NCBI RefSeq assembly: GCF_009931435.1 | Contig: NZ_CP043414.1 | Strand: one strand, 5' to 3' | Length of the DNA: 64,000 bases | Origin: Escherichia coli | GTDB taxonomy: Bacteria > Pseudomonadota > Gammaproteobacteria > Enterobacterales > Enterobacteriaceae | Part shown: in pieces, positions 11,321 through 49,473 of the stretch | Layout of the letters: each line of letters starts with the position of its first letter | Position numbering within the stretch: the first letter of the stretch is position 1 | Made by a program: the position numbers and the translations under genes | The notes under the pieces: generated by a model | The model's database searches: none | Told to the model about the DNA's origin: nothing | What the model saw: only the letters and a program-made list of their open reading frames with translations

Positions 11321-11347
11321 ACAAAAAACGCGCCCGAAGGTGCGTTG
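11321..11347. repeat. attL: left copy of 27-bp direct repeat (acaaaaaacgcgcccgaaggTgcgttg)
   Basis: Matches 49447..49473 with one mismatch; integrase gene lies just inside. Confidence 0.75.
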
Positions 11348-15537: not shown

Positions 15538-15750
15538 ATGAACAAAAAGACCTGGTTTCGCGCATACATGTGGGCGCTGGTATGCGTCCTCGTTTCTCTC
15601 ATTCTGTATGTGGGGCTACTTCCCAGAATGATTTCATCAGACAGCTCCTTCCTGGTATTGCTGGGCATTTTTGTCGCCTTGCTGTACCCGGCGGGCGTTG
15701 TTCGCTTTTTCAGTAACTACATCAAAGCAATTATGGAAACCAAACAATGA
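15538..15750 (+). CDS. Small two-TM membrane protein (70 aa)
   Basis: Two hydrophobic helices; ATGA overlap with downstream SPFH gene. Confidence 0.5.
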   Translation: MNKKTWFRAYMWALVCVLVSLILYVGLLPRMISSDSSFLVLLGIFVALLYPAGVVRFFSNYIKAIMETKQ

Positions 15751-16571
15751 AAAAACTATTACCACTCATCCCTCTCCTGATGACCACACTTCTGGTTGGC
15801 TGTGACCGCGTGGAGCCGGGCAATGTAGGCATCAAAGTCAACAAACTGGGCGACGATAAAGGCGTCGGTGAAGTAGTTGGCGTTGGCCGCTACTGGACAG
15901 GCTGGAATACAGAGGTTTACATCTTCCCGACTTTCAAACAAATGAAGACTTACGATGAGCCGTTCAACTTCCAGATGAGTGACGGCACAACCATCGGCTA
16001 TCACATCGGCGTGGCCTACAAAGTTGATCCATCCAAAGTTACCACTGTGTTTCAGACCTACCGCAAAGGCGTGGATGACATTACCGACACTGACCTGCGC
16101 CAGAAGATCGCCGATGCACTCAACCGACTGGCCAGCAAAATGACCACCGATAAGTTTATCGACGGTGGCAAGTCTGAACTGCTGGATTCAGCACTTAAAG
16201 ACATTCAGTCAGAAATGACACCTATCGGCATTCAGGTCATGAGCCTCTCTTATGTCGGTAAACCGGAATATCCGCCAACCGTTATCGACAGCATTAACGC
16301 CAAAGTCACGGCAAACCAGAAAACCCTGCAACGCGAACAGGAAGTCAAGCAACGCGAAGCAGAAGCCAACATGTTGCGCGCAGAAGCTGCCGGACAGGCT
16401 GATGCCATTCGCACAAAAGCCCAGGCTGAAGCCGACGCCATTCGTTTACGCGGTGAAGCTCTGCGCCAGAATCCCGGCGTTATGGAGCTGGAAGCAATCA
16501 ACAAATGGAACGGCACGCTGCCGCAATACATGACCAGCAACACCGCTGTTCCGTTTGTTCCGGTGAAGTAA
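15747..16571 (+). CDS. SPFH/band-7 (prohibitin/HflKC-like) domain lipoprotein
   Basis: Signal peptide plus lipobox LLVGC; SPFH-like core; Ala/Glu/Arg-rich coiled-coil tail. Confidence 0.6.
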   Translation: MKKLLPLIPLLMTTLLVGCDRVEPGNVGIKVNKLGDDKGVGEVVGVGRYWTGWNTEVYIFPTFKQMKTYDEPFNFQMSDGTTIGYHIGVAYKVDPSKVTTVFQTYRKGVDDITDTDLRQKIADALNRLASKMTTDKFIDGGKSELLDSALKDIQSEMTPIGIQVMSLSYVGKPEYPPTVIDSINAKVTANQKTLQREQEVKQREAEANMLRAEAAGQADAIRTKAQAEADAIRLRGEALRQNPGVMELEAINKWNGTLPQYMTSNTAVPFVPVK

Positions 16572-20514: not shown

Positions 20515-21474
20515 ATGAAAATTTGTATCGACGACGGATCCACCAACATCAAGCTGGCATGGACTGAGAACGGCGAACGCCGCAACGCCATCAGCCCGAA
20601 CAGCTTCAAGTCAGAATGGTCTGCGCCGTTCGGTGGCACGCAGCCCGCGAACTACATGCTTGATGGCGTGCGCTATGGTTTTGATCCGGTCAGCGATCGC
20701 TTTGTCCAGACGACCGACACGCAATACCAGTACAGCGATGTGAATGTCATTGCCATTCATCATGCGCTGGTCAAATCAGGCATCACGCCACAGGAGGTGG
20801 ATGTGGTTGTCACCCTGCCACTGAGCGAGTATTTCGACACAAACGCACAGCCGGACATGGCCAACATCAACCGCAAAAAAGCGAACGTTATGCGCCCGGT
20901 GGAGTACCAGAACGGCGAGGCATTCACTATCCGTAACGTGCGGGTTATGCCTGAATCCATTCCGGCTGGCTTTAAAGCACTGGCTGACATGAGTCCGTTT
21001 GAATCCCTGCTGATTGTGGATTTGGGCGGAACCACGCTGGATGTGGCAAAGGTTCAGGGGCAACTGGCAGGTATCAGCCAGGTGTTTTGCGATCCACACG
21101 TAGGCGTTTCCCTGATGGCCGATGCCGTACTGTCGGTAATGGCCACTAACGGTATGCGCACCAGTCACCACATCGCCAATACCATTATCGAACATCGCCA
21201 CGATGAAGCCTGGCTGCGCCAGCACATCCACAATAACGCACATTACGCCAGCCTGATGGCTGTTATTCGTGAAAAGGAAGAAACACTGAAACAACGCGTG
21301 ATCCGCGCGCTGGCGGGTTTTTCGGGTTACGGGCGGGTGATGGTTGTAGGTGGAGGGGCAGAGATTGTGGCACCCGCTATCCGCGAAGCCTGCGGAGTTA
21401 ATGCGACTTTCATCGCGGACGGGGTGCCACAGTTTGCTCTGGTTAATGGGCTGTACGCAATGGACAAGGAGTAA
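20515..21474 (+). CDS. parM: Actin-like segregation ATPase ParM/StbA
   Basis: N-terminal IDDGSTNIKLAW and overall similarity to plasmid R1 ParM as recalled. Confidence 0.85.
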   Translation: MKICIDDGSTNIKLAWTENGERRNAISPNSFKSEWSAPFGGTQPANYMLDGVRYGFDPVSDRFVQTTDTQYQYSDVNVIAIHHALVKSGITPQEVDVVVTLPLSEYFDTNAQPDMANINRKKANVMRPVEYQNGEAFTIRNVRVMPESIPAGFKALADMSPFESLLIVDLGGTTLDVAKVQGQLAGISQVFCDPHVGVSLMADAVLSVMATNGMRTSHHIANTIIEHRHDEAWLRQHIHNNAHYASLMAVIREKEETLKQRVIRALAGFSGYGRVMVVGGGAEIVAPAIREACGVNATFIADGVPQFALVNGLYAMDKE

Positions 21475-21478
21475 ATCA

Positions 21479-21793
21479 ATGACGACACCAACCAGACGGA
21501 TAAGTTTCTATCTGAAGCCCGCCGTCGTCAAGAGCGAACGGGAGGCGTGCAGTTACCTCGACAGCCTGCCAGCCTCCGAACGCAGCCGCGCACAACGCGC
21601 GGCTTTTCTGGCCGGACTGGCTCTTATAAAACGCACCCCCGCGTTGGCGTATTCGCTGGCAGAATGGTCAGAAGACGAAATACGGATGCCACCGCTACCA
21701 GTACAGCCTGAAAAACCGGCGCAACCAGCAGCAGACAGCGCCCCCCATATGCAGCAGGTGAAAAAGAATATTCAGGCGTTTTTCCCGAAGTGA
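21479..21793 (+). CDS. parR: ParR/StbB-like centromere-binding protein (104 aa)
   Basis: Immediately downstream of parM; AGGAG RBS; N-terminal RRISFYLKP resembles R1 ParR. Confidence 0.65.
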   Translation: MTTPTRRISFYLKPAVVKSEREACSYLDSLPASERSRAQRAAFLAGLALIKRTPALAYSLAEWSEDEIRMPPLPVQPEKPAQPAADSAPHMQQVKKNIQAFFPK

Positions 21794-22534: not shown

Positions 22535-22792
22535 CTATCCGGCCTGCAACAACTCCAGAGCCATTTGTTTTTCTTCCGGACGCATCCGCTCAATCAACAG
22601 CTTTAACACACCATTCTCCAGCCCGCTGGGCACCAGTGTGTGCGAGTAGGTCAGATTCATCACCCAGGTATGTCCGCACTCGAGACGGGTGCAACGGTAA
22701 TACACATCAGCAAACTGATCGGTTTTCCAGGCTGTTTTCTCAATCACTGCATGTGCACCGCAGCAATGACATCGCGCTTTCTGTCTGCGCAT
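22535..22792 (-). CDS. Ogr/Delta-family zinc-finger late-gene activator (start at internal Met)
   Basis: CxCC...YYRC...CGH pattern similar to P2 Ogr; adjacent to the late operon. Confidence 0.65.
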   Translation of the reverse strand: MRRQKARCHCCGAHAVIEKTAWKTDQFADVYYRCTRLECGHTWVMNLTYSHTLVPSGLENGVLKLLIERMRPEEKQMALELLQAG

Positions 22793-22857: not shown

Positions 22858-23892
22858 TCACTCCATGGGTTCATCAAAATCAAGAATAAATTTCACCTCC
22901 CCCAGTCGTCTGATATCCGGGTCGCTGTTGATCCCCTCCATAATCAGGCGGCGCATCGGGATAACCTCATCCCTGTAATATGCCTCGCGGGATTTCAGTG
23001 GGTCACCAAGCCCGGCCGTATTTGCGGGAATGATGCCGGCAAGCCCGGGTGGAAAACGGTGCGCAACGAGCTGATCCTGGGCACTGATAGTTTTTATATT
23101 CAGGAACTCATCTTTTGTACCTGAATCTCCGATAGGGATCACCTTAACGCCTTCTTTGTCTCCGCCAGGTATATTGATAAACATGGATTTAAAATTGCCC
23201 GCCCCTTTTGACGCCTCTATCTTTTTACGGAATTCCGCCTCGAGCTCGGGATCCATGTCCGGGTCAGTGGAATACAGGATATAACCAAGATGTGCGCCGT
23301 TCTTGTAATACTTGCGGCGAAAGCGGGTGGCATCCACATTCAGCATGGCAGATTCCATCCCGTGAATATAATCCGGGACACCGTAAACCTGCTGTTGCGG
23401 GTCATAAATGGCCACGAACACTACTTCGCCTGGCGGGTAAACGAGATCTTCCAGTGCCGCCTGCACAATCACCGTGCCACCCTCGTTGTTACGCCGCAGG
23501 TACAGAGAAGGTAACGTATGCAGGCGCACCACTCGACCGAAGCCATTGCGCACTTTAAGCAACCCCATATCCCCGAATATCAGCAGATTGGTTACTGCTG
23601 CCGCCATGGCGGCGTGTGTCATACCACCACCCCCCCGAAAACCCTGCATGATCATATTGACGCGCGCACGCAATACCGCGCCGTGATACGGTGCGATATT
23701 GGACAACATGGCGAGATCCATGCGCTCAATGGGCGGCGTGTACCAGCCGTTATAGCCATCCCAGAGCGAGCCGTAATAACAGCCCCATGCAGCGACCGGT
23801 TCCGGGTCACCAAATTCAATAAAAGTCATTTTGCTGGCTGTTTTTTTTGCCACGCCATCGTGTAACACGGGGTATTTTTTCTTTTTACTCAT
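22858..23892 (-). CDS. Portal protein (P2 gpQ-like, 344 aa)
   Basis: Size and position next to terminase large subunit, divergent from scaffold/capsid. Confidence 0.75.
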   Translation of the reverse strand: MSKKKKYPVLHDGVAKKTASKMTFIEFGDPEPVAAWGCYYGSLWDGYNGWYTPPIERMDLAMLSNIAPYHGAVLRARVNMIMQGFRGGGGMTHAAMAAAVTNLLIFGDMGLLKVRNGFGRVVRLHTLPSLYLRRNNEGGTVIVQAALEDLVYPPGEVVFVAIYDPQQQVYGVPDYIHGMESAMLNVDATRFRRKYYKNGAHLGYILYSTDPDMDPELEAEFRKKIEASKGAGNFKSMFINIPGGDKEGVKVIPIGDSGTKDEFLNIKTISAQDQLVAHRFPPGLAGIIPANTAGLGDPLKSREAYYRDEVIPMRRLIMEGINSDPDIRRLGEVKFILDFDEPME

Positions 23893-25672
23893 CTGACAGG
23901 ATCCATGTTGATTTGCGCTTGTGCTTATAGTTCAGGGGTTCATTACTTGCGGCATGAGCTATGGCAAAGAAGATGTCAGCGTGCCCGGTTTCTTCGCTAC
24001 GTTCGGCGGTGAAAGTGACTTTATTGCCGCTGTTGGTGGATTCCTGACGAATGGCCAGGAACGATGCCGGAATATCCGTGGCTTCTTCATCCCACTCAAT
24101 ACGGTTGGCGTAAATCAGATCCAGCATCTTCATCACCAGGCGGTTTTTGGATTCCACGCTGTAATGAATGGCCACTGTTTCACGGCGGGCAAATCCCTGA
24201 ACCAGCTCAAAGACACCGTAGCCAAGACCGGTGACGTCAATGCCGATAAATGTCATGTTATAGCGCGCCTTAATGCTGCGGATACGCTCTGCCATAAACT
24301 GGAATGACATGCTGCGCCAGTGGTGTTTTTCCAGCACGCGGAATCGTTCTGCCGCAACCAGCGGCGGTGCCAGCACAACAAATGTGGCGTTATCGCCGGA
24401 GCGCGCAGGGTCAAAGCCGCCCCACACTTCACGGTTACCAAATGGCATGGGCTCTTCCGGGTGAAAATCCTCCCACGTACTGACATCAACACCACAACGC
24501 ACAAGATCATCGAATTTAAAGACGCTCTCTTTGTCATCCACAAACACACACATAAACAGCATATTGAACGCTGTTTCGTTGTATCGCTCGCGCAGCTCGT
24601 TGATGTCAGCAAGGTTAAAGCCGCCGGCAATGGCATCTTCCAGCGTAACCACATAGCGCCACTGACCATCCGGACATTCACGCCCACCATCGCGCAGCTC
24701 ATCAAAGGACGGAAACTCAACCCCTTTTCGTTTCGGATCGCCTTTGCGCCATTCATCGCCAGACCAGAACGGGTAACCCTGGTGTGTTTTGGATGACGGC
24801 GTGGAGAAATAGGTAATGCGCCAGTGTTTATGGGTGGCCATCCCTGATGCCACTTCATTGAGACGGCGAAAACCGGGGATCCACAGGTATTCATCAATAT
24901 ACAGGTGGCCGCTGTTTGACTGCGCTGTGTTACTGTTGGTCGCCAGAAAATACAGTTCAGCCAGATTACTTAACTTAACCGGATTGCCTTTAATGGGAAT
25001 GCCAAACTCTGTTTGTGCAATTTTTACAATATAAGTACGGAACACTTCGGCCTGACGTTTTGATGCCGATAAAAATATCTGTGTGTCGCCGGTTAATACT
25101 GCATCTTCAAATGCCTCAAACGCGAAGTAATACGTCGCCCCAATCTGGCGGGATTTAAGCAGGTTGCGTACACGGCGGAATTTGTTTTCACGCAGATGCA
25201 ACTGATAAGCAAACAACTTTTTCGTAAACGGCTCAAAACTTTCAGCAGTCAGTCCGGAAACGTCATTAGCTTTGCGGGGGCGCTCTTTCTTACCTGCACC
25301 TTTTTCTCCGCGTTCTTCTTTTCCATAACGACCAGACTGGGGAATATCCGCTCCCATTCGTTCAATCTCGGCCATTCGTTCCGTGTGCTTGTTCCTGACC
25401 GACATCAGTTTGACATGATGACCAATCAGGCGATCGAGTTCATCGTGCTCTTCCGGCGTTTTATGATCACGCTCCGCCAGTACAGCGAGACGACGGGCGA
25501 TAACATCCTCCACGCCTTCAGTATTAAGCTGTGTGTACCACTCAAACTTTGTCGCCCAGTAATAAACAATTCGCGGGCTGTTCAGTCCGAGCTTCTTTTG
25601 TATTTCTTTTGGTGTGTGTCTTTTCAGATAGAGCGATTTTGCAGCAGCAATCACCTCATCAGAATACGCCAT
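23885..25672 (-). CDS. Terminase large (ATPase) subunit, P2 gpP-like
   Basis: 595 aa; ATPase motif region; gene order. Confidence 0.85.
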   Translation of the reverse strand: MAYSDEVIAAAKSLYLKRHTPKEIQKKLGLNSPRIVYYWATKFEWYTQLNTEGVEDVIARRLAVLAERDHKTPEEHDELDRLIGHHVKLMSVRNKHTERMAEIERMGADIPQSGRYGKEERGEKGAGKKERPRKANDVSGLTAESFEPFTKKLFAYQLHLRENKFRRVRNLLKSRQIGATYYFAFEAFEDAVLTGDTQIFLSASKRQAEVFRTYIVKIAQTEFGIPIKGNPVKLSNLAELYFLATNSNTAQSNSGHLYIDEYLWIPGFRRLNEVASGMATHKHWRITYFSTPSSKTHQGYPFWSGDEWRKGDPKRKGVEFPSFDELRDGGRECPDGQWRYVVTLEDAIAGGFNLADINELRERYNETAFNMLFMCVFVDDKESVFKFDDLVRCGVDVSTWEDFHPEEPMPFGNREVWGGFDPARSGDNATFVVLAPPLVAAERFRVLEKHHWRSMSFQFMAERIRSIKARYNMTFIGIDVTGLGYGVFELVQGFARRETVAIHYSVESKNRLVMKMLDLIYANRIEWDEEATDIPASFLAIRQESTNSGNKVTFTAERSEETGHADIFFAIAHAASNEPLNYKHKRKSTWILSDE

Positions 25673-27802: not shown

Positions 27803-28513
27803 ATGCCAACGCCAATGCAGCGACAACGTGCCCGACAGATGGATGAGCGCCGTGCGGCGCTCATGACCAGAACGGACGGGAGCGCCATCAGCACAGAGAG
27901 TCAGCACATTAAGCTGCTGGCACTGGATAACGACATCAGACAACTGCACAACATGGAGCTGCTGTCTGACAAGCTGGAATTCAAACGGAACACGCTGCTG
28001 CCCCGCTGGCTGCCACACGCACAGGCTTATCTGGAGGGGGAACGCGTCTATCAGAATCCCATTCTGGTGTACTGCATCATCTGGCTGTTCGATACCGGGC
28101 AGTTTGAGATGGCGCTGCGGTGGGCTGACATTGCCATTGAGCAGGGGCAAAAGACGCCGGAGAACTTCAAAAGCGAGCTGCCAACGTTTGTGGCCCATTT
28201 CATTCTTGAATGGGCAGAAACCGAAGCTGAACGTGGGAACAGTATCGCGCCATATTTTCAGCAGGTGTTTGAAAAAATCCGTGACAAATGGCGCGTGAAT
28301 GAACGCCTTGCTGCCCGCTACTGGCGCTTTGCAGGCGTCCTGCTGCTGCGCGGCGATGACGGTAAACCGCTGGCCAGTGCAATTAACGATCCGGAGAGAC
28401 TGCAACAGGCCGACCAGTGTCTGGAACAGGCTGCCTGGCTGCATCCAAAAATTCAGGTGAAAACCCTGCGCCAGCGCATTGCCGCAAGACTGCGCGCGTT
28501 GCAGGGCACGTAA
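27803..28513 (+). CDS. Terminase small / endonuclease subunit, P2 gpM-like
   Basis: Gene order after capsid; 236 aa. Confidence 0.75.
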   Translation: MPTPMQRQRARQMDERRAALMTRTDGSAISTESQHIKLLALDNDIRQLHNMELLSDKLEFKRNTLLPRWLPHAQAYLEGERVYQNPILVYCIIWLFDTGQFEMALRWADIAIEQGQKTPENFKSELPTFVAHFILEWAETEAERGNSIAPYFQQVFEKIRDKWRVNERLAARYWRFAGVLLLRGDDGKPLASAINDPERLQQADQCLEQAAWLHPKIQVKTLRQRIAARLRALQGT

Positions 28514-43040: not shown

Positions 43041-43587
43041 CGGGGAAGCCATTCTGCTGCGTAACATCACCGTCAGCGCCACCATGCAACTACCGGACAA
43101 AGATATGTCCGGACAGTCAACCAGCACCACGAGCGCCCAGCAGGGAAACAAGGCTAAAGAGCTGCGCGTGTCGGGGGTTATTGATTTTAACGATGAAGCT
43201 ATTCTGACCCGTATTTTTCAGCTTGCGGAGGCAACAGAAAGCAACGGTGCTAAAAAAACATATCGCATTGCTAACGCTACCGCGAAGGCAATCAATATGC
43301 GACAGGGGGTGTTTTCTGGTGGCATTGATGCCACGGAACAACAGGGAAAAATGCACTGGCAGATCACCTTTACTCTCAGGGAAAAATTAAGCGTGCCAGA
43401 GAAAGCATCCGCACGCAGCGGTTCGCAGAAAACCATCGCCAGACAGCAGACCCAGAATGGCAGCGAACAGGTACCAGACAAAGGCATGAATACGCAAAGT
43501 TCGTTCTGGAAAAAAATCAATGATGCCGTTGGCTCTGGTCTGGATGCTGTTGGCATCGGGAGCGTGAAAGAGGAAGGGAAAACATGA
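43012..43587 (+). CDS. Hypothetical tail/baseplate-associated protein (191 aa)
   Basis: AAGGGA RBS; coupled to downstream spike gene. Confidence 0.5.
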   Translation: MTQMIVLALDGEAILLRNITVSATMQLPDKDMSGQSTSTTSAQQGNKAKELRVSGVIDFNDEAILTRIFQLAEATESNGAKKTYRIANATAKAINMRQGVFSGGIDATEQQGKMHWQITFTLREKLSVPEKASARSGSQKTIARQQTQNGSEQVPDKGMNTQSSFWKKINDAVGSGLDAVGIGSVKEEGKT

Positions 43588-45281
43588 AATTGATACAACG
43601 CTGCATGATTAATGGCGAACGGGTGGAAATTGCCGATATAAGCCTTGTTCTTACCCTGAATGCTGCCGGTCGTGGCTTCATTTCTGTTAACAATCTGTCA
43701 CCCGAACACAGCCTTGCCGGCGCAATGGTACAAATTGATCTCGGCCGTGACGGTGAAGCATGGCGCTATTTCTCCGGCTACATTGAGCGCGATCAACCTG
43801 CTGAAAATGGCTCACGTCGCCTTTTTATTCGTGAAGCGGCTGCTGTGCTGGATTTTGATTTCCCTTGCTCCATGCAACACCCGACGTTGCGGGGGGTACT
43901 CGATAATCTGGGGCGACAAAGCGGTATCGTTTTTATCACTCCGGATGCGGATTATGCCAGTATACCAACTCCCTACATCACCCACAGCGGCAGCGGAGCA
44001 CAACTGCTCAGCCAACTGGGGCGAGCATTCAGTATCAGCGATTACGTCTGGCACCCTATGCCGGACGGTTCTGTATTTGTGGGAAGCGCAGCTGATTCAC
44101 GATTTGCCAGTATTACAATGCCGGATATTCCGCAACAGTACACACTCGGGCAAAGCGGCGGAAACAGCATCGACATCATGTTTATGGAAACTGTGCGACC
44201 GGGCGTGAACCTACCGGCCGGGCGCATTACCCGTGTAGCCCTCAACAACGAGAAAATGACCCTGACATGGGAGCGCCTTACCGCCACGGGTACCCCTGTT
44301 TCCAAATCACCATTACGCAGACAAATGGAAACACAGTTCCCAGAACTGGCCAGCGGTACGCTACATACCCGGCTGGCGCGCGTCATTGCGCCAACGGAGC
44401 CCACCACCCTGGGCGACGTGGCCGACAGTTTCCGCCCACGCTACGCCGTCGATGTGCAGTTGCTTGATGAGAACGGCAACGATAAAAGCGACACGCCCGT
44501 TTACCCGGCAGTACCGCTCCCCGTCCCCATGGCTGGCAGTGAGGCGGGATGTTTTGCCTACCCACCGGCAGGCACCATCGTGGAAATATCCAACATTGAA
44601 GGACGTCCGGACAAACCCGTTATCAGGCAAATCTTACCCGCTGGCCATAACCTGCCTGATGTAAAGCCCGGCGAACAGCTGCAGCAACAGCGCGCAGAAG
44701 TGTTTCAGCGCGTCACGACTGACGGAAGCTGGCACAGAGAAACCGATCAGCAAATCAGGGAGCATTCAGCCAGACGAACCATTAACAGCGATCAGGAAGA
44801 ACGCACAACAACAACCAGAACAACAACAGTACAGGCAAACGACATAACCAGCGTTCTGGGAACCAGCAAGCTGATGACAGGCCAGACAGAACACATTACT
44901 ACTGGTCATTATGCGATCGCAGCCGGTGAGCATATCCAGATGGTAGCGCAGGATTTGCTGACTAAACTCAAAGGGGCGACATCCACGATTGAGCGCGACC
45001 TTACTGAAAACGTGGGAGGCCGCAGAACATGCCGGGCGGACGGTGGTCTGGAGTTTACAGCCCCGACAGTATTTATTGGTCGCGGTGGCTCACGGGAAAA
45101 ATCCGGACTTAATCTGCTGACGTTGTTGATTGATATTCTGGATCTGGTTCAGTTGCTGGCCACACACACTGCAAACCACACCCACAGCAACACCGGCGCA
45201 CCAACAAACAACAGCGAACTTGCCGCAGACGCCAAACAGGCTACGAGCCTGCGCGAAAAATACGGTGACCTTATCGCCTGA
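43584..45281 (+). CDS. Baseplate central spike protein (gpV-like C-terminal domain)
   Basis: C-terminal THTANHTHSNTGAPT resembles the His-rich tip motif of P2 gpV as recalled; 565 aa. Confidence 0.55.
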   Translation: MKLIQRCMINGERVEIADISLVLTLNAAGRGFISVNNLSPEHSLAGAMVQIDLGRDGEAWRYFSGYIERDQPAENGSRRLFIREAAAVLDFDFPCSMQHPTLRGVLDNLGRQSGIVFITPDADYASIPTPYITHSGSGAQLLSQLGRAFSISDYVWHPMPDGSVFVGSAADSRFASITMPDIPQQYTLGQSGGNSIDIMFMETVRPGVNLPAGRITRVALNNEKMTLTWERLTATGTPVSKSPLRRQMETQFPELASGTLHTRLARVIAPTEPTTLGDVADSFRPRYAVDVQLLDENGNDKSDTPVYPAVPLPVPMAGSEAGCFAYPPAGTIVEISNIEGRPDKPVIRQILPAGHNLPDVKPGEQLQQQRAEVFQRVTTDGSWHRETDQQIREHSARRTINSDQEERTTTTRTTTVQANDITSVLGTSKLMTGQTEHITTGHYAIAAGEHIQMVAQDLLTKLKGATSTIERDLTENVGGRRTCRADGGLEFTAPTVFIGRGGSREKSGLNLLTLLIDILDLVQLLATHTANHTHSNTGAPTNNSELAADAKQATSLREKYGDLIA

Positions 45282-45880
45282 TCACCGGGCATACCCCCCC
45301 ATAAACGCCCATCACGCAACGCACGGCTCCGGTCGTGCGTTTTCATATCTGCCACCTGATTAATGCGTTCTGCGTGCCATTCTGGCGCTGTATGCGCACA
45401 CCGCGTAAACGGTGTGACGTAAAGCGTGAGGTGACGTAAACCGCGCTACCCCCTCCAACCCGCGGGTTTCGTGTCGAAACAGTTTTTCAGTTTTCTGCCG
45501 TGCAAAAATGACCGCCAGCCCGCGCAGCAACTGAGGGAAAAGCGAAGATCTGAAATTTCACGCTTTGAAATTTTTTGCAGTTTTCAAAGTGGTTTTTACG
45601 ATCGCACAAATGGCCGGAGCAATAAAACCGCATGATATTAAAAGAGTTTTCATACTTTACGCGAGACAAAAAAACGATCACGAAAGGATCGCATCAAACA
45701 GCCATCAAACAAAGAAGGCAGACACGGCGCGGCCTGCACAAAATTAAGCTCCAAAATAAAACTGAAAAAAAGGATCGCAACAAGAAGAAAAGCGCGTAAA
45801 ACGATCGCTGCTGATGTGGCGTTTCTTTATACAAGCTGCTATTTGCGATATGCTGAACACATCAACCTGTGGAGTGCATT

Positions 45881-46507
45881 ATGAAACGAAAATCAAAGTC
45901 TGCTGCCATTGCTGCTATTACTACAGCTCTGACAGCATCACTGGCTCCGGTGCCAGCTAAAAGCACGATACTACCAACAACAGTTATTGAATCCGCGACA
46001 CACGCCAGAGTGGTTTCAATGCTTACATTTGAGCATCATGATGGTCAGGTGTTTCTGCCTCTCGAAGAAGCTATTGAATATATCAACGGGCTGAATGACA
46101 ACATGCGCGCCGCGCTCAATGCAGTCATTGAAGAACGACAGAACAGAGGCAAGGGAGCACTGTTTACTGACAAAACCGCAAAAATCATAAAAATATGCGA
46201 AGAGTCAATTAAGCAGCACACCCGTGTTAAAGAGGCTGTCAAAATTGTAATGGATCCGGATAACCTGGCAAAAATGTATCCGGATAGCCTGGAGCAAAGA
46301 ATCGCCTATCGCAATAAACTGGTTCGTTTTGGTCGGGCAATTGCGCAGGGAGAGTTTATCGCTCGTGATGCCATCAACACCATCAAACGAAGCACCGCAC
46401 CAGACAAAACAACCAGCCTGGGCAATACGCTGTCTGACGGAAATGTGAAAGCAATGATTATTGCCGAGCATAAAAACATGGGACTCCCGGCACCGGAGTT
46501 TTCCTGA
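45881..46507 (+). CDS. Hypothetical protein (208 aa) with signal-peptide-like N-terminus, coupled to the YafO-like gene
   Basis: GGAG RBS before MKRKSK; N-region/hydrophobic stretch MKRKSKSAAIAAITTALTASLAPVPA; TGATG overlap with next gene. Confidence 0.6.
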   Translation: MKRKSKSAAIAAITTALTASLAPVPAKSTILPTTVIESATHARVVSMLTFEHHDGQVFLPLEEAIEYINGLNDNMRAALNAVIEERQNRGKGALFTDKTAKIIKICEESIKQHTRVKEAVKIVMDPDNLAKMYPDSLEQRIAYRNKLVRFGRAIAQGEFIARDAINTIKRSTAPDKTTSLGNTLSDGNVKAMIIAEHKNMGLPAPEFS

Positions 46508-46887
46508 TGGCAAGCAAAGTAAGCATTCATAAAGATGTTGAATACCAGGACATTGCAAAAGTTTACGGAAAGGCTCTGGAAAACTGGTTAAATACCGGTG
46601 TTCTCCCTGACAGATTCGGCAATGAAGGGCAGTGGGAAGATAACGCAAGATTATGTGGTTCGTTTGTATATAAATTACACATAAGACTACCGTCAGAACC
46701 ACCATGGAAGAAAAGCAAAGCCCAAATAGACAGAACTTCAAATATCTATCTGGTTTATACAAGGCACTGGATGGATTATGACAATATACAAATCATCAGC
46801 ATCATGGCCCCAGATGCTCACGAAAAAGCCAAAACTTCTTTCATGGCTGAACTGGAAAGACGGGCTGAAGAATTCCAGAACTCATAA
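46507..46887 (+). CDS. YafO-family toxin-like protein (126 aa)
   Basis: Blocks GVLPDRFGNEG, HIRL, YLVYTR and C-terminal ISIMAPDAHEKAK...AEEF resemble E. coli YafO as I recall it. Confidence 0.55.
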   Translation: MASKVSIHKDVEYQDIAKVYGKALENWLNTGVLPDRFGNEGQWEDNARLCGSFVYKLHIRLPSEPPWKKSKAQIDRTSNIYLVYTRHWMDYDNIQIISIMAPDAHEKAKTSFMAELERRAEEFQNS

Positions 46888-46907
46888 ATTGCCTGATTTT
46901 CTCTCAG

Positions 46908-46942
46908 AAACCCGCAGCGTAAAAACTGTGGGTTTTCTTTTT
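46908..46942 (+). terminator. Rho-independent terminator after the YafO-like operon
   Basis: Hairpin aaacccgcag...ctgtgggttt followed by T-run. Confidence 0.65.
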
Positions 46943-47178
46943 GCTACCCTGATACGTGAGGGTAGCACTCAAAGTGAGGCAATATGTAGGCAACCTATTT
47001 AATACGTAAAAATTAATGCATTAAATGGATATTTACTAGCATGGGTACTGGCTTAAAATATCACAACCCTGTTTTATAACGTACTGAATTTATTAGGTGT
47101 GACGGTTTTCCAATGGGGCTTCCGACATTACGTTCAGCTGATGCTTTTCTTATGTAACGAGAAGACATATATTGGTAA

Positions 47179-47234
47179 GCGATGAAGCGATGAAGCGATG
47201 AAGCGATGAAGCGATGAAGCGATGAAGCGATGTA
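47179..47234. repeat. Octanucleotide tandem repeat (GCGATGAA) x6 plus one degenerate unit, flanked by ATGTAACG
   Basis: Directly visible; about 95 bp upstream of the ATPase start codon. Confidence 0.95.
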
Positions 47235-47251
47235 ACGTCTGTTTGGTTATA

Positions 47252-47296
47252 AACTTCACACTAATAATTTCTAAATGAAATTATTAGTGTGAAGTT
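47252..47296. promoter_or_regulatory. 20-bp perfect inverted repeat (aacttcacactaataatttc / gaaattattagtgtgaagtt, 5-nt spacer): candidate operator or 5'-UTR hairpin
   Basis: Perfect palindrome ending 34 bp upstream of the ATPase ATG; RBS AAGGAA follows. Confidence 0.6.
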
Positions 47297-47329
47297 GATG
47301 TTTATTGTGATTATAACTAAGGAATTAAA

Positions 47330-48799
47330 ATGAAATTATCTCCAGCAGAATTGAAGTTAGAAAGGGGTAAGGTTCAAGATAATAAATTCAATCAATATGT
47401 TAAACGTATCACATTAAAAAATGTCAGAGGGTTTGATGAGGAAATTGTGGAGTTTAAAACACCAGTTACAGCTCTTATCGGGACTAATGGTGGAGGGAAG
47501 TCGACTATATTAGGTGCTGTAGCTCTCGCTTATAAAAATGTTAAGCCAAGCAAGTTTTTCCCTAAATCATTTTATGGGGATGATTCAATGAGTGATTGGG
47601 AAATTGGATTCGAATTGATTGACAAGCCTATTTCAAAAGATAAAAATATTAACAGGACTGCAAAATTTAAACAGATGAAATGGCGCAGAGATAATTTCCC
47701 AGAGCGAAATGTTGTATATGTAGAAATACAAAGAACTGTTCCTGCAGGCGAACTAACTAAGTTTAATAAATTTTTATCTGGCGATGCTAAACAATTTGAA
47801 GAAAAAAATCTCAACCCTGAGACAATAAAATATTGCTCTGCCGTTTTAGATAAAAAGATAGAAGATTACAGATGTATAATAAATAAGCACGATCCATCTT
47901 CAAGAATGTTTGTAGGTAAGGCAATTAATGGTTCTGGTTATTCTCAGTTCCATTTTGGTGCAGGTGAAGCATCAATAATAGATACTATTGATAGAATAGA
48001 GACTGCTGCTGATAATTCTCTTGTTTTAATTGAAGAAATTGAAAATGGACTGCATCCTGTTGCAGTGCGGTTGTTTGTTAACTATTTGACAAATGTAGCA
48101 AAGAGGAAAAAGCTGCAAATAATATTTACAACACATTCGCAGGATGCAGTAAACGAGCTAGAGCCAGAAGCTGTTTGGGCTTCTATTAACAAAAAAGTAT
48201 GGAATGGTAAACTAAGTATTGAAAGTTTACGCGCTATAACGGGACAGAAGATAAATTCGAAAGTTATATATGTTGAAGATTCTTTTGCAAAAGAGTGGGT
48301 TGAAAATGCGATGGATCGATATATTCCAGAACTAGCCTCAACAATAAAAGTCTACACGGCAGGTGGTTACCCCAGCGTGGTTAAAGTAAGTCAATATCAT
48401 AATGAGAACCCTACTATAAATTATCCATCAATCGCATTAGTTGATGGGGATATTAAAGGTAGACCCGGAACTAAAGATCTGCCTGATAATGCAATGTTCA
48501 TCGGGGATGATTATCCTGACGCTACGGTTTTTCATTATATTGCAAATAACATAGAAGAAAATGCCTCAGTTTTGAGGCAAAGATGTTTGTTAACAAGATT
48601 TGACGCTGAAAAGATTAAATCGGAAGTTGAGAGTGTGATGCATTCTGCATGTGATCACCATGTTTATTTTACTAGATTAAGTGATAAATTAGATTTTGCC
48701 TCAGAACTATTCATTCGAGCTGGTATGATAGATTTATTTAATGAGAAAAATCCAGAATTTTGGTCCCCAATTATGGACTTCATTAAAAAAGGTCTATAG
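47330..48799 (+). CDS. OLD-family-like ABC ATPase fused to Toprim/DUF4435-like domain (489 aa); candidate antiphage defence protein
   Basis: Walker A GTNGGGKST, Walker B LVLIEEIE, H-loop TTHS; C-terminal YVEDS (Glu) and ALVDGD (DxD); AT-rich gene. Confidence 0.65.
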   Translation: MKLSPAELKLERGKVQDNKFNQYVKRITLKNVRGFDEEIVEFKTPVTALIGTNGGGKSTILGAVALAYKNVKPSKFFPKSFYGDDSMSDWEIGFELIDKPISKDKNINRTAKFKQMKWRRDNFPERNVVYVEIQRTVPAGELTKFNKFLSGDAKQFEEKNLNPETIKYCSAVLDKKIEDYRCIINKHDPSSRMFVGKAINGSGYSQFHFGAGEASIIDTIDRIETAADNSLVLIEEIENGLHPVAVRLFVNYLTNVAKRKKLQIIFTTHSQDAVNELEPEAVWASINKKVWNGKLSIESLRAITGQKINSKVIYVEDSFAKEWVENAMDRYIPELASTIKVYTAGGYPSVVKVSQYHNENPTINYPSIALVDGDIKGRPGTKDLPDNAMFIGDDYPDATVFHYIANNIEENASVLRQRCLLTRFDAEKIKSEVESVMHSACDHHVYFTRLSDKLDFASELFIRAGMIDLFNEKNPEFWSPIMDFIKKGL

Positions 48800-48865
48800 T
48801 AATAATGCAAAAATATAATATTTAGTTTGCGATTTATATTTTTCATAATGAATTGTTGAGAAAAT

Positions 48866-48901
48866 AAGAGAGCATCGAAAATTGAGGCTCTCTTATTTTT
48901 A
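48866..48901 (+). terminator. Rho-independent terminator after the ATPase gene
   Basis: Hairpin aagagagc...gctctctt followed by T-run. Confidence 0.7.
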
Positions 48902-48959
48902 TGAGATATCTCTAATGTATTAATCGTTTTATTTTGGTGCTACCACCACTGATGCTAAC

Positions 48960-49346
48960 TTGTCGATCAGACATTCGCACTATTCAATATCTTTTAGGCT
49001 CCGCAATGAAAACGCCCCCGAAGGAACAATCCCCCGTCAATCGGTTGCCAAAGGCCATTTAGGTAAATCGCCTTCGAGGTCGTTCGATGGCTGCATGACG
49101 TTCCCGGTTATCCCGTCAAAGAAAATGCACTCGACCGGAAAACCAGAAGAACTAATGGCGGAGTTGGTCAGGACTGCGAATAGTGGCGGAACAGTCCTTG
49201 ATCCTTTTATGGGGCCAGGGACAACGGGTGTGGCTGCACTGAAAGCAGGGCGAAAATTTATTGGTATAGAGACCAGTGATCATTATTTTGAAGTAGCAGC
49301 ACAGCGACTTCGGGGGACTATTACCACAACCATTTCGACTACATAA
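48960..49346 (+). pseudogene. 3' fragment of a beta-class DNA methyltransferase gene (N6-adenine or N4-cytosine), N-terminally truncated
   Basis: HSTGKPEELMAEL and VLDPFMGPGTTGVAALKAGRKFIGIE (SAM-binding FxGxG) present; no catalytic DPPY region upstream. Confidence 0.6.
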
Positions 49347-49350
49347 GACA

Positions 49351-49378
49351 AAGCCCGCATTTTTGCGGGCTTGTATAT
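49351..49378 (+). terminator. Terminator hairpin after the methyltransferase remnant
   Basis: aagcccgca tttt tgcgggctt stem-loop. Confidence 0.6.
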
Positions 49379-49446: not shown

Positions 49447-49473
49447 ACAAAAAACGCGCCCGAAGGCGCGTTG
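49447..49473. repeat. attR: right copy of the 27-bp direct repeat; also the raiA terminator hairpin
   Basis: acaaaaaacgcgcccgaaggcgcgttg; perfect hairpin acgcgcc/ggcgcgt plus T-run on the raiA strand. Confidence 0.75.

What the first reader, a model, noticed from the sequence alone, without database searches (positions are those of the whole stretch)
45282..45868. Repeat-rich non-coding leader upstream of the cargo genes
The ~590-bp spacer after the spike gene contains duplicated short motifs (GTGACGTAAA twice around 45410..45440; AAACGATC(A/G)C and AAAGGATCGCA each twice around 45677..45810) and palindromes (tgaaatttca; ctttgaaa/tttcaaag). No ORF with a plausible RBS is present. These may be regulator binding sites controlling cargo expression, or remnants of the phage end.
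Basis: seen in the sequence. Interest (0 to 1): 0.3.

Follow-up and report, generated by a model that had tools for sequence, protein, structure and literature searches.

The report
Prophage DNA-packaging (cos) site
The repeat-rich 600-bp gap after the last tail gene is most likely the unannotated packaging (cos) site of an HP1-type P2-family prophage of E. coli, where the phage enzyme cuts the DNA to make the virion ends; it is not a control region for the neighbouring cargo genes.

Summary
All the motifs are present at the stated coordinates, and they exceed chance. Repeated 8-mers number 20 against 5.6 in shuffles. GATC occurs 6 times against 1.2 expected (P=0.002).

The region is not a cargo leader. 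The first 495 bp (to 45776) are conserved in relatives that carry different cargo at other integration sites. The same architecture recurs in distant Peduoviridae.

The core CTACCCCCTCCAACCCGC (45446-45463) aligns with:
- the cohesive ends annotated in the HP1 and phiO18P records;
- the PV94 genome end, where a paper reports a 16-nt overhang found by run-off sequencing;
- the record ends of ESSI-2 and SW5.

They lie at about -63/-49/-32 here and about -57 to -27 in relatives. A TTTTTCAG box follows at +18 to +23.

As in HP1, the site lies between the orf34/orf35 tail-gene homologues and attP/int. attR is 4 kb further on, at 49447-49466.

The cargo (a 208-aa protein, a YafO toxin and a HEC-04 ATPase) begins at 45777. 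It occupies a variable cos-adjacent slot that holds hok in most relatives.

One feature is unexplained: conserved GATC sites right of the cut site, found across the family.

Verdict: an ordinary but unannotated cos site, a new member of a known kind.

The parts
43584..45281 (+). Last tail/baseplate gene (565 aa), the homologue of HP1 orf35. It is the left landmark of the cos region.
   Evidence: tblastn finds homologues in HP1, HP2, PV94, phiO18P, K139, ESSI-2 and others. In many of these records (ESSI-2, SW5, HP1, HP2, K139, PV94, phiO18P, C5a and others) it lies within a few hundred bp of a record end. The upstream gene carries Pfam HP1_ORF34.
45318..45345 (+). Rho-independent terminator of the tail operon: hairpin 45318-45341 followed by a T-run.
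   Evidence: Folds at -17 kcal/mol with z=-3.8. It is the only significant conserved RNA structure in the spacer (alifold z=-4.8). The stem shows G-T/G-C and C-G/T-G changes among relatives. Terminators occupy the same place in ESSI-2, ev015, Yen324 and HP1.
45402..45440 (.). Three CGTAAA boxes (CGCGTAAA 45402-45409, GACGTAAA 45416-45423, GACGTAAA 45433-45440). They are predicted terminase-recognition elements left of the cut site.
   Evidence: Nearly invariant in the 20 close relatives. Equivalent [CG]ACG[GTA]AA boxes lie at -50/-29 (PV94), -49/-29 (Yen324), -48/-31 (SW5) and -57/-44/-27 (HP1), against -63/-49/-32 here. The function is inferred.
45446..45463 (.). Predicted cosN core, CTACCCCCTCCAACCCGC: the pyrimidine-rich segment expected to become the cohesive end.
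   Evidence: Unique in the window. Together with the CGTAAA boxes it forms the most conserved 40-bp stretch of the spacer (0.96-0.98). It aligns with HP1 cosL TCCTTCCCC (annotated) and phiO18P cosL CTCATCCGCTCCCGCC (annotated). It aligns with the PV94 record end CTCTTCCTCACCCGCC; the PV94 paper reports a 16-nt 5' overhang. It also aligns with the ESSI-2 15-nt terminal repeat CTACACCGCACCCGC and the SW5 record ends. The exact nick positions here are not determined.
45483..45494 (.). TTTTTCAGTTTT box, 18 nt right of the core.
   Evidence: Invariant in 22 loci. TTTTTCA(G/T) lies at +18 to +23 in L032, L035, ESSI-2, Yen324, PV94 and HP1. It is also present in F108 and C5a and at +47 from the left end of P2.
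45502..45528 (.). Conserved G+C-rich block, GCAAAAATGACCGCCAGCCCGCGCAGC.
   Evidence: Conservation 0.97 among relatives. CCGCCAGCCCGCGC-like blocks align in ESSI-2, SW5, Yen324 and L035.
45547..45585 (.).
   Evidence: GATCTGAAA also occurs about 100 nt from the left end in phiO18P and C5a. F108 and HP1 have GATCTTAACTG there.
45600..45776 (.). A/T-rich conserved extension. It holds GATC at 45600, 45676, 45687 and 45773, ATTAAAAGAGTTTT (45637-45650), TTTACGCGAGAC (45656-45667), GCGCGGCCTGC (45727-45737) and an inverted copy of the box, AAAACTGAAAAA (45758-45769).
   Evidence: The GATC columns are 0.989 conserved against 0.894 for the rest (permutation P=0.0007). Blocks are shared with ESSI-2 and Yen324. 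GATC offsets recur in ESSI-2, PV94 and HP1. No RNA structure was detected.
45777..45880 (+). Cargo-specific junction and 5' leader. It includes a sixth GATC (45803), a weak -35/-10 candidate TTTATA-17-TATGCT (45826-45854) and SD GGAG (45871-45874) before ATG 45881.
   Evidence: Homology with the hok-type relative L002 ends exactly at 45776. Conservation falls from about 0.8 to 0.3-0.5. The promoter candidate is my reading of the sequence and falls below the scan's threshold.
45881..49361 (+). Variable cargo between cos and attR: a 208-aa protein, a YafO-family toxin (46507-46887), a 489-aa AAA ATPase matching PADLOC HEC-04 (47330-48799), and the 3' fragment of an N6/N4 DNA methyltransferase.
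   Evidence: Loci with an identical 565-aa gene carry hok+Hexapep protein, hok+Com+MTase, hok alone, or this cargo.
27803..28513 (+). Small terminase subunit (P2 gpM family), a predicted cos-binding partner.
   Evidence: Pfam Phage_term_smal, E=1.9e-36.
23885..25672 (-). Large terminase subunit, the predicted cos-cutting enzyme.
   Evidence: RefSeq annotation of the near-identical locus (99.7% identical over the spacer): 'terminase large subunit domain-containing protein', next to GPO scaffold and P2-family capsid genes.
11321..11340 (.). attL core (ACAAAAAACGCGCCCGAAGG).
   Evidence: An exact 20-bp direct repeat occurs only here and at 49447-49466.
49447..49466 (.). attR core, the true prophage end, 3983 bp right of the cos core.

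Best explanation
The spacer is the cos (cohesive-end, DNA-packaging) region of an intact 38.1-kb HP1-type Peduoviridae prophage (11321-49466).

Layout, left to right:
- a terminator closing the tail operon (45318-45345);
- three CGTAAA boxes (45402-45440);
- a pyrimidine-rich core, CTACCCCCTCCAACCCGC (45446-45463);
- a TTTTTCAGTTTT box at +18;
- about 310 bp of conserved, A/T-rich, unstructured DNA that carries further copies of the box and five conserved GATC sites.

Inferred mechanism. During lytic growth the P2-type terminase (gpM-like small subunit 27803-28513, large subunit 23885-25672) recognises the flanking boxes. It then makes staggered nicks in or at the edges of the core. This would give 5' cohesive ends of roughly 16-18 nt. 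The virion DNA would then start with the cargo/attP/int side and end with the 565-aa tail gene.

What is shown: homology and positional equivalence to cos sites that were determined experimentally or annotated in the records, and to the ends of other records; and strong purifying selection on the core.

What is inferred: the actual cleavage, the overhang length, and which proteins bind which boxes.

The cargo genes are not controlled by these motifs. They occupy a variable slot that begins at 45777, immediately beside cos.
For: 1. Position. HP1's record annotates cosL at 1-9, attP at 251-694 and int at 698-1711. Its orf35, the homologue of the 565-aa gene, ends 192 nt before the right end. Here the core starts 164 nt after the stop codon. 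Pfam HP1_ORF34 marks the gene before it. Lavigne et al. 2009 state that the HP1/HP2 cos lies next to attP, not next to the portal gene (PMC2771037).

2. Sequence. The core and its flanks align with:
- the annotated cohesive ends of HP1 and phiO18P;
- the record end of PV94, for which a 16-nt 5' overhang was found by run-off sequencing (PMC3986222);
- the 15-nt terminal direct repeat of ESSI-2 and the record ends of SW5.
In the ESSI2_ev015 record, phage sequence stops inside the same motif and is followed by Nextera adapter to the record end.

3. Offsets. ACG[GTA]AA boxes lie at about -50/-30 and TTTTTCAG at +18 to +23 in phages of Escherichia, Yersinia, Vibrio and Haemophilus; ESSI-2 has the TTTTTCAG box but no match to the ACG box pattern.

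4. Selection. The CGTAAA boxes plus core are the most conserved 40 bp of the spacer among 22 loci (0.96-0.98).

5. Machinery. gpM-family small terminase, large terminase, portal and P2-type capsid genes are present.

6. No competing site. No P2-type cos sequence occurs anywhere in the window.

7. In many deposited genomes of this group the homologous gene lies within a few hundred bp of a record end.
Against: There is no direct evidence of cleavage for this phage.
- No IMG/VR contig containing the motif starts or ends at it.
- blastn of the spacer against deposited phage genomes finds nothing. The homology is seen only in anchored alignments of short blocks.
- Overhang lengths differ among relatives (HP1 annotated 9 nt, ESSI-2 15, PV94 and phiO18P 16), so the nick positions here are a guess.
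- K139, a relative, is reported to have terminally redundant rather than cohesive ends (PMC3986222). The packaging mode is therefore not uniform in the group.
- The conserved non-coding stretch right of the core (about 310 bp) is longer than the approx. 200-bp lambda cos (PMC4669245 abstract). It may carry a second function.
Confidence: 0.85

Rival explanations
1. One reading: the repeats are operator or activator sites (repressor, Ogr-like activator) in a long leader that controls the downstream cargo operon.
For: The cargo operon is transcribed away from the spacer. It needs a promoter somewhere in 45777-45880. A weak TTTATA-17-TATGCT candidate exists at 45826-45854. In P2, the old-tin transcript also starts close to cos.
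Against: All motifs left of 45777 are conserved in relatives with unrelated downstream genes and in other genera. No sigma-70-like promoter was found in 45100-46000. No TGT-N12-ACA site and no IHF consensus were found. Homology with relatives breaks exactly at 45776, so only the last ~100 bp belong to the cargo module.
Confidence: 0.05
2. It is cos, and the right-hand extension (about 45547-45776) is also a Dam/SeqA-responsive module. In this reading the methylation state of the GATC array gates terminase binding or cutting, or gates transcription across cos, by analogy with the P1 pac site.
For: GATC is enriched and conserved.
- 5 sites in 330 nt against 1.1 expected.
- GATC columns are more conserved than their neighbours (P=0.0007).
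- Nine lineages from hosts I take to be Dam-positive total 30 sites against 9.5 expected (P=9e-8).
- Offsets and one-helical-turn pairs recur: +211/+222 here, +195/+205 in PV94, and +138/+213 in ESSI-2 against +135/+211 here.
- The one Pseudomonas relative has a single site. That its host lacks Dam is from my own knowledge.
- HP1 is listed among phages that encode a Dam-like methyltransferase, and the role of phage Dam enzymes is described as not well understood (PMC7556043).
- P1 pac uses seven GATC hexamers with methylation-dependent cleavage (PMC10028697).
Against: Yersinia phage YenM_324 keeps the cos architecture with no GATC in the region. The sites lie on one side of the core only, and their flanks differ from the P1 TGATCA/G repeat. 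Several GATCs sit inside larger conserved words such as GATCTGAAA, so they could simply be part of a protein-binding motif. The sequences in the conservation test are phylogenetically related. No experiment was possible.
Confidence: 0.15
3. The region is a replication origin or a partition (centromere-like) site. A GATC cluster, A/T-rich DNA and iteron-like repeats would fit either.
For: There are six GATC sites and three copies of TTTTYCAGTTTT in A/T-rich DNA. The prophage encodes a ParM-type segregation ATPase at 20515-21474.
Against: The replication protein belongs to the GPA family (E=2e-130). The PV94 paper places the origin of such proteins within gene A (PMC3986222). The region is 24 kb from parM. 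The architecture is anchored on mapped genome ends, not on origins.
Confidence: 0.03
4. The spacer encodes a small RNA or a small protein.
For: Small ORFs exist, for example 45632-45799. SI7's annotators called small ORFs in the equivalent region.
Against: No Rfam match at E<=10. Apart from the tail-operon terminator, consensus folding finds no convincing structure on either strand; one marginal 4-bp helix at the cargo junction (45740-45839, E=-1.6 kcal/mol, z=-3.0) is too weak to count. Frame-breaking indels occur among close relatives. No promoter-like site was found.
Confidence: 0.02

Closest known systems
cos sites of HP1-type Peduoviridae (Haemophilus HP1/HP2, Vibrio PV94, Aeromonas phiO18P)
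   Same: The location is the same: after the orf34/orf35 tail genes and before attP/int. The core is pyrimidine-rich and ends in CCCGC(C/G). ACG(G/T/A)AA boxes lie at about -50/-30 and a TTTTTCAG box at about +20. A terminator follows the last tail gene. The terminase is of the P2 type.
   Different: The core is longer and differs in sequence: 18 nt between the conserved CTAC and CCCGC, against 15-16 nt in ESSI-2, PV94 and phiO18P. There are three boxes rather than two. About 4 kb of cargo lies between cos and attP, whereas HP1 has about 250 bp there. No experimental ends exist for this phage.
P2/186/P4 cos (19-nt GGCGAGGCGGGGAAAGCAC beside the portal gene Q)
   Same: Same terminase family. 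A TTTTTTCAG box lies right of the cohesive end, at +47 in P2. A variable accessory or defence hotspot lies directly beside cos (Rousset et al. 2022, PMC9122126).
   Different: No P2-type 19-mer occurs in the window. The core here is C-rich rather than G-rich on the strand that carries TTTTTCAG. The site lies beside the tail end and attP rather than between gene A/old and Q.
Lambda-type cos (cosQ-cosN-cosB)
   Same: The general logic is shared: a nicking site flanked by repeated protein-recognition elements, spanning about 200 bp or more (PMC4669245 abstract).
   Different: There is no sequence relation. No IHF consensus site was found. The terminase small subunit belongs to a different family.
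P1 pac site (GATC-hexamer, Dam-controlled packaging site)
   Same: A cluster of conserved GATC sites lies next to the site where packaging is initiated.
   Different: P1 uses headful packaging, with TGATCA/G repeats on both sides of the cut. Here the phage is a cos phage, the GATCs lie on one side only, and their flanks differ (A(C/G)GATCGC). Dependence on methylation is untested.

Membership tests
HP1-type Peduoviridae cos site | Lies between the last tail gene (orf35 homologue) and attP/int, not beside the portal gene. | tested here: met
   The core starts 164 nt after the stop of the orf35 homologue. HP1_ORF34 marks the gene before it. attR is 4 kb to the right and int lies at attL.
HP1-type Peduoviridae cos site | The core sequence is homologous to experimentally determined or annotated cohesive ends. 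| tested here: met
   It aligns with HP1 cosL, phiO18P cosL, the PV94 record end, and the ESSI-2 terminal repeat, with a shared ...CCCGC(C/G) right edge.
HP1-type Peduoviridae cos site | Flanking recognition boxes at conserved offsets. | tested here: met
   ACG[GTA]AA boxes at -63/-49/-32. TTTTTCAG at +18. Relatives have boxes at -57 to -27 and TTTTTCAG at +18 to +23.
HP1-type Peduoviridae cos site | A cognate P2-type terminase (gpM and gpP homologues) is encoded by the same element. | tested here: met
   Pfam Phage_term_smal E=1.9e-36. The large terminase and portal are annotated in the near-identical RefSeq locus.
HP1-type Peduoviridae cos site | Terminase cuts here to give cohesive ends on virion DNA. 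| not testable with these tools
   No virion-derived contig ending at the site was found. This needs induced phage DNA.
P2-type cos (19-nt GGCGAGGCGGGGAAAGCAC beside gene Q) | The 19-nt cohesive-end sequence is present next to the portal gene. | tested here: not met
   0 matches with up to 3 mismatches in the whole window. The region upstream of the portal gene shows coding sequence, a terminator-like hairpin and a small zinc-finger ORF by my own reading.
Dam-controlled packaging site (P1 pac type) | Multiple GATC-containing repeats at the packaging site. | tested here: inconclusive
   GATC is enriched and conserved. The sites lie on one side only, have a different repeat word, and are absent in YenM_324.
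Dam-controlled packaging site (P1 pac type) | Cleavage depends on adenine methylation. | not testable with these tools
   Requires dam- hosts or in vitro cleavage assays.
Promoter/operator leader of the cargo operon | A sigma-70 promoter, or Ogr-type (TGT-N12-ACA) or other operator sites specific to the cargo. | tested here: not met
   0 promoter-like sites. No TGT-N12-ACA site in the region. The motifs are conserved regardless of the cargo carried.
Known RNA families (Rfam 15) | A match to a covariance model. | tested here: not met
   No match at E<=10 in 44800-46400. No convincing conserved structure beyond the terminator.
cos-adjacent accessory/defence hotspot (as in P2 and P4, Rousset 2022) | Variable gene content immediately beside cos among otherwise near-identical phages, including defence-type genes. 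| tested here: met
   Four cargo states occur behind an identical 565-aa gene. The breakpoint is at 45776. The cargo includes a HEC-04 candidate defence ATPase (E=6e-204) and a YafO toxin.

The most novel reading that the evidence does not exclude
The conserved GATC array on the right side of cos may be a methylation-sensing gate on packaging in a cos phage, a counterpart of the P1 pac mechanism. The array occurs in phages of Escherichia, Cronobacter, Salmonella, Vibrio, Aeromonas, Pseudoalteromonas, Pasteurella and Haemophilus, often as pairs one helical turn apart. Fully methylated, hemimethylated or SeqA-bound states would decide whether terminase may cut. This could also explain why some phages of this group, such as HP1, carry their own Dam-like methyltransferase.
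Probability: 0.12. Interest if true: 0.55.

Novelty: new member of a known kind. Interest (0 to 1): 0.25.

Why it matters
Marking this spacer as cos corrects a plausible misreading of it as a cargo regulatory region. It also fixes the physical map of a prophage lineage found in at least 65 of the 5,426 complete E. coli genomes searched, where nothing is annotated under the match in the 20 records listed.

It shows that the variable cargo sits directly beside cos. The states seen are hok, com-methyltransferase, an acetyltransferase-like gene, and YafO plus a HEC-04 ATPase. The cos-adjacent hotspot pattern described for P2 and P4 therefore also holds in HP1-type phages, where cos lies in a different part of the genome. 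That supports the idea that cohesive ends promote cassette exchange.

The family-wide GATC array is a small, testable lead on a possible role for Dam methylation in packaging by cos phages.

Tried and rejected
- Rfam scan of 44800-46400 at E<=10: nothing.
- Promoter scan: no sigma-70-like site. The terminator-like hits on the minus strand are not backed by conserved structure.
- blastn (sensitive mode) of the spacer against 50,697 phage records: no match. The homology emerged only after fetching relatives through the neighbouring protein and anchoring on record ends.
- P2 cos 19-mer: absent.
- Ogr-type TGT-N12-ACA and IHF consensus sites: none in the region.
- att core: absent from the spacer, present only at 11321 and 49447. 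The spacer is therefore not an att remnant.
- hok/sok remnant: in hok-type relatives hok starts about 830 bp after the tail gene's stop and homology to our window ends at 495 bp. Rfam finds no Sok-type RNA there.
- Consensus RNA folding in 100-nt windows on both strands: only the tail-operon terminator is convincing. One window at the cargo junction gave z=-3.0 for a 4-bp helix of -1.6 kcal/mol, which I disregard.
- Virion-derived contigs ending at the motif in IMG/VR: 20 hits, all internal.
- Exact-protein contig look-up: gave cargo diversity but no termini.
- Dam-minus host comparison: only one usable Pseudomonas relative (phi3: cos-like core found, 1 GATC). This is too few to decide.
- Esposito et al. 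1996 (HP1 genome) is not held in the library.
Full report
**Context**

The window is E. coli chromosome. A 38.1-kb prophage lies between pheA/pheL and raiA. It is bounded by an exact 20-bp direct repeat, ACAAAAAACGCGCCCGAAGG, at 11321-11340 and 49447-49466.

A near-identical RefSeq locus (99.7% identical over the spacer) is annotated with these genes:
- large terminase, GPO scaffold, P2-family capsid and gpM terminase;
- lysis genes, tail and baseplate genes;
- three hypothetical proteins, the last being the 565-aa gene at 43584-45281.

After the gap come a 208-aa protein, a YafO toxin, an 'ATP-dependent nuclease', a methyltransferase fragment, and then raiA. Nothing is annotated in the gap in any of the 20 listed records, out of 65 E. 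coli genomes that carry it.

Against dinucleotide-preserving shuffles, the spacer has 20 repeated 8-mers where 5.6 are expected. It has 6 GATC sites where 1.2 are expected (P=0.002). The GATC cluster is the densest in the 64-kb window.

Small ORFs are present. One- and two-base indels among close relatives break their frames.

**The motifs do not belong to the cargo**

Most E. coli matches cover only the first 495 bp of the spacer.

In those strains the downstream genes are different:
- hok alone;
- hok plus com and a methyltransferase;
- hok followed by a DUF4875 gene, which may lie outside the prophage.

The prophages sit at other chromosomal sites (raiA, serS, flk).

Pairwise BLAST against one such relative shows 97% identity up to 45776, an abrupt break, and resumed homology only at 49049 in the 3' half of the methyltransferase.

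Contigs that encode an identical 565-aa protein show four different cargo states.

In an alignment of 22 related loci, conservation stays at roughly 0.75-0.98 across 45282-45781 and falls to 0.3-0.5 after that. It peaks at 0.96-0.98 over 45422-45461.

**What it is**

The 565-aa protein has homologues in HP1, HP2, PV94, K139, phiO18P, F108, ESSI-2, SW5 and others. In many of these deposited genomes it lies within a few hundred bp of a record end. The gene before it carries Pfam HP1_ORF34.

HP1's record annotates cosL at 1-9, attP at 251-694 and int at 698-1711. Its orf35 ends 192 nt before the right end. Lavigne et al. [quoted passage not shown]

Evidence from the ends of related records:
- ESSI-2 carries the same 15 nt, CTACACCGCACCCGC, at both record ends.
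- SW5 ends with ...CTACACCGC and begins with GCACCCGC....
- SI7, a permuted record of the same species, lacks 9 nt exactly there.
- In the ESSI2_ev015 record, phage sequence stops inside the motif and is followed by Nextera adapter to the record end.
- Yersinia phage YenM_324 has the identical 15-mer internally.
- PV94's paper reports a 16-nt 5' overhang found by run-off sequencing. Its record ends ...CACGAAATCG...CACGGAATCCGCACTCTTCCTCACCCGCC and begins tgcgcgctttcgcacgtgcaTTTTTTTCAGTTTT.
- phiO18P annotates cosL as CTCATCCGCTCCCGCC.

The window reads ...CGCGTAAACggtgtGACGTAAAgcgtgaggtGACGTAAACcgcgCTACCCCCTCCAACCCGCgggtttcgtgtcgaaacagTTTTTCAGTTTT....

I anchored every sequence on the shared CCCGC(C/G) edge. 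The ACG[GTA]AA boxes then fall as follows:

| Phage | Box offsets |
|---|---|
| this window | -63, -49, -32 |
| SW5 | -48, -31 |
| YenM_324 | -49, -29 |
| PV94 | -50, -29 |
| HP1 | -57, -44, -27 |

ESSI-2 has no match to this box pattern. TTTTTCA(G/T) falls at +18 to +23 in every sequence examined except SW5. P2 itself has TTTTTTCAG at +47 from its left end.

The core CTACCCCCTCCAACCCGC is unique in the window.

The palindrome TGAAATTTCA and the GATC words lie in the conserved right flank. Blocks of that flank also align in ESSI-2 and YenM_324: CCGCCAGCCCGCGC, ATTAAAAGAGTTTT, TTTACGCGA, GCGCGGCCTG and AACTGAAAAAA.

**Mechanism**

The prophage encodes a gpM-family small terminase (Pfam E=1.9e-36). 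It also encodes a large terminase, portal and capsid of the P2 type.

The best-supported reading is that terminase recognises the flanking boxes and nicks both strands at the core to make cohesive ends. Virion DNA would then run from the cargo/attP/int side to the 565-aa gene.

Shown: positional and sequence equivalence to cos sites that were mapped or annotated, and to record ends; strong conservation; presence of the machinery.

Inferred: cleavage itself, overhang length and polarity, and which protein binds which box.

**Rivals**

- Cargo leader. Rejected for 45282-45776, for the reasons above and because no promoter, Ogr-type site or IHF site is present. It remains plausible only for 45777-45880, where a weak TTTATA-17-TATGCT and a good SD precede ATG 45881.
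- Origin of replication. Unlikely. The replication protein is a GPA-family initiator, and the PV94 paper places the origin of such proteins inside gene A.
- Small RNA or small protein. No Rfam match. The only convincing conserved structure is the tail-operon terminator at 45318-45341 (-17 kcal/mol, z=-3.8; alifold z=-4.8).
- att remnant. The att core is absent from the spacer.
- P2-type cos elsewhere. None is present.

**The unexplained part**

Five GATC sites right of the core are retained in 20-22 of 22 loci. Their columns are more conserved than other tetramers of the region (0.989 against 0.894, permutation P=0.0007).

GATC counts in the 330 nt right of cos, each with about 1 expected:

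| Phage | GATC sites |
|---|---|
| this window | 5 |
| PV94 | 6 |
| phiO18P | 4 |
| C5a | 4 |
| F108 | 3 |
| ESSI-2 | 3 |
| SW5 | 3 |
| HP1 | 2 |
| YenM_324 | 0 |
| Pseudomonas phi3 | 1 |

The first nine total 30 sites against 9.5 expected (P=9e-8). That Pseudomonas lacks Dam, and that the other hosts have it, comes from my own knowledge.

Offsets recur. ESSI-2 has +138/+213 against +135/+211 here. Pairs about one helical turn apart occur here (+211/+222) and in PV94 (+195/+205).

P1's pac site uses GATC hexamers and methylation-dependent cutting (PMC10028697). HP1 is listed among phages that encode a Dam-like methyltransferase of unclear role (PMC7556043). A methylation gate on cos cutting is therefore conceivable.

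Against this, YenM_324 shows the GATCs are dispensable. Several of them also sit inside larger conserved words such as GATCTGAAA. I rate this reading at about 0.12-0.15.

**Comparison and novelty**

This is a member of the HP1-type cos family by every feature that could be tested in silico. It fails the P2-type test on sequence and location, although it shares the terminase family and the TTTTTTCAG box.

The cargo slot beside cos matches the cos-adjacent hotspots of P2 and P4 (Rousset et al. 2022). Here it holds a HEC-04 candidate defence ATPase (E=6e-204) and a YafO toxin.

The finding is ordinary biology that had not been annotated. It is a new member of a known kind, with one modest open question, the GATC array.

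Noticed in passing
window 20515-21793: The prophage encodes a full-length ParM/StbA-type actin-like segregation ATPase (Pfam StbA_N E=1.8e-82 plus ParM_N). A small ORF follows at 21479-21793 that might be a ParR-like partner. A plasmid-type partition module in an integrated P2-family prophage is unusual.
   Followed up: partly
window 47330-48799: The 489-aa 'ATP-dependent nuclease' matches PADLOC HEC-04, a candidate defence system, over its full length (E=6e-204). It carries AAA_15/AAA_21 domains related to OLD, GajA, PtuA and AriA ATPases.
   Followed up: partly
window 45881-46887: A YafO-family toxin (46507-46887) overlaps by one base a preceding 208-aa protein that has no Pfam, NCBIfam or PADLOC match and a hydrophobic, signal-like N-terminus. 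By my recollection this is much longer than the usual YafN partner. It may be a new antitoxin or partner type.
   Followed up: no
window 46908-46969 and 49028-49361: Short islands of homology to the hok-type relative (62 nt and 24 nt) and a methyltransferase lacking its N-terminus flank the cargo genes. This suggests two separate cassette replacements. The 208-aa/YafO pair may have replaced hok, and the HEC-04 gene may have replaced com plus the 5' part of the MTase.
   Followed up: partly
L010 4894-4937 (NC_049395.1, start of record): The RefSeq record of Escherichia phage ESSI2_ev015 begins with Illumina Nextera adapter sequence (CTGTCTCTTATACACATCT...) fused to the phage sequence inside the cos motif. 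This is adapter contamination in a reference genome.
   Followed up: no
L005 5880-5900 versus L007 end / L008 start: Salmonella phage SI7 (a permuted record) lacks 9 nt (CTACACCGC) at the cos junction relative to the concatenated ends of SW5, which is the same species. This is probably an assembly artefact at the cohesive ends.
   Followed up: no
L009 reverse strand, about 2440-2400 (ESSI-2, roughly 330 nt right of cos): A LexA-box-like palindrome (TACTGTGTTTATATACAGT) sits immediately after the conserved cos-right region in ESSI-2. The first cargo gene there may be SOS-controlled.
   Followed up: no
L064 407-1021 (Pseudomonas phage phi3): In phi3 a HicA/HicB toxin-antitoxin pair sits between the last tail gene and the cos-like core (CACTTATCCCCCTCCCGCC). 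Accessory genes can therefore sit on either side of cos in this family.
   Followed up: no
window 15747-16571 and 22535-22792 (-): An SPFH/Band-7 protein is encoded in the early region of the prophage (Pfam E=5.8e-31). A small Cys-rich ORF next to the portal gene looks like an Ogr/Delta-type zinc-finger activator, but it has no NCBIfam match.
   Followed up: partly
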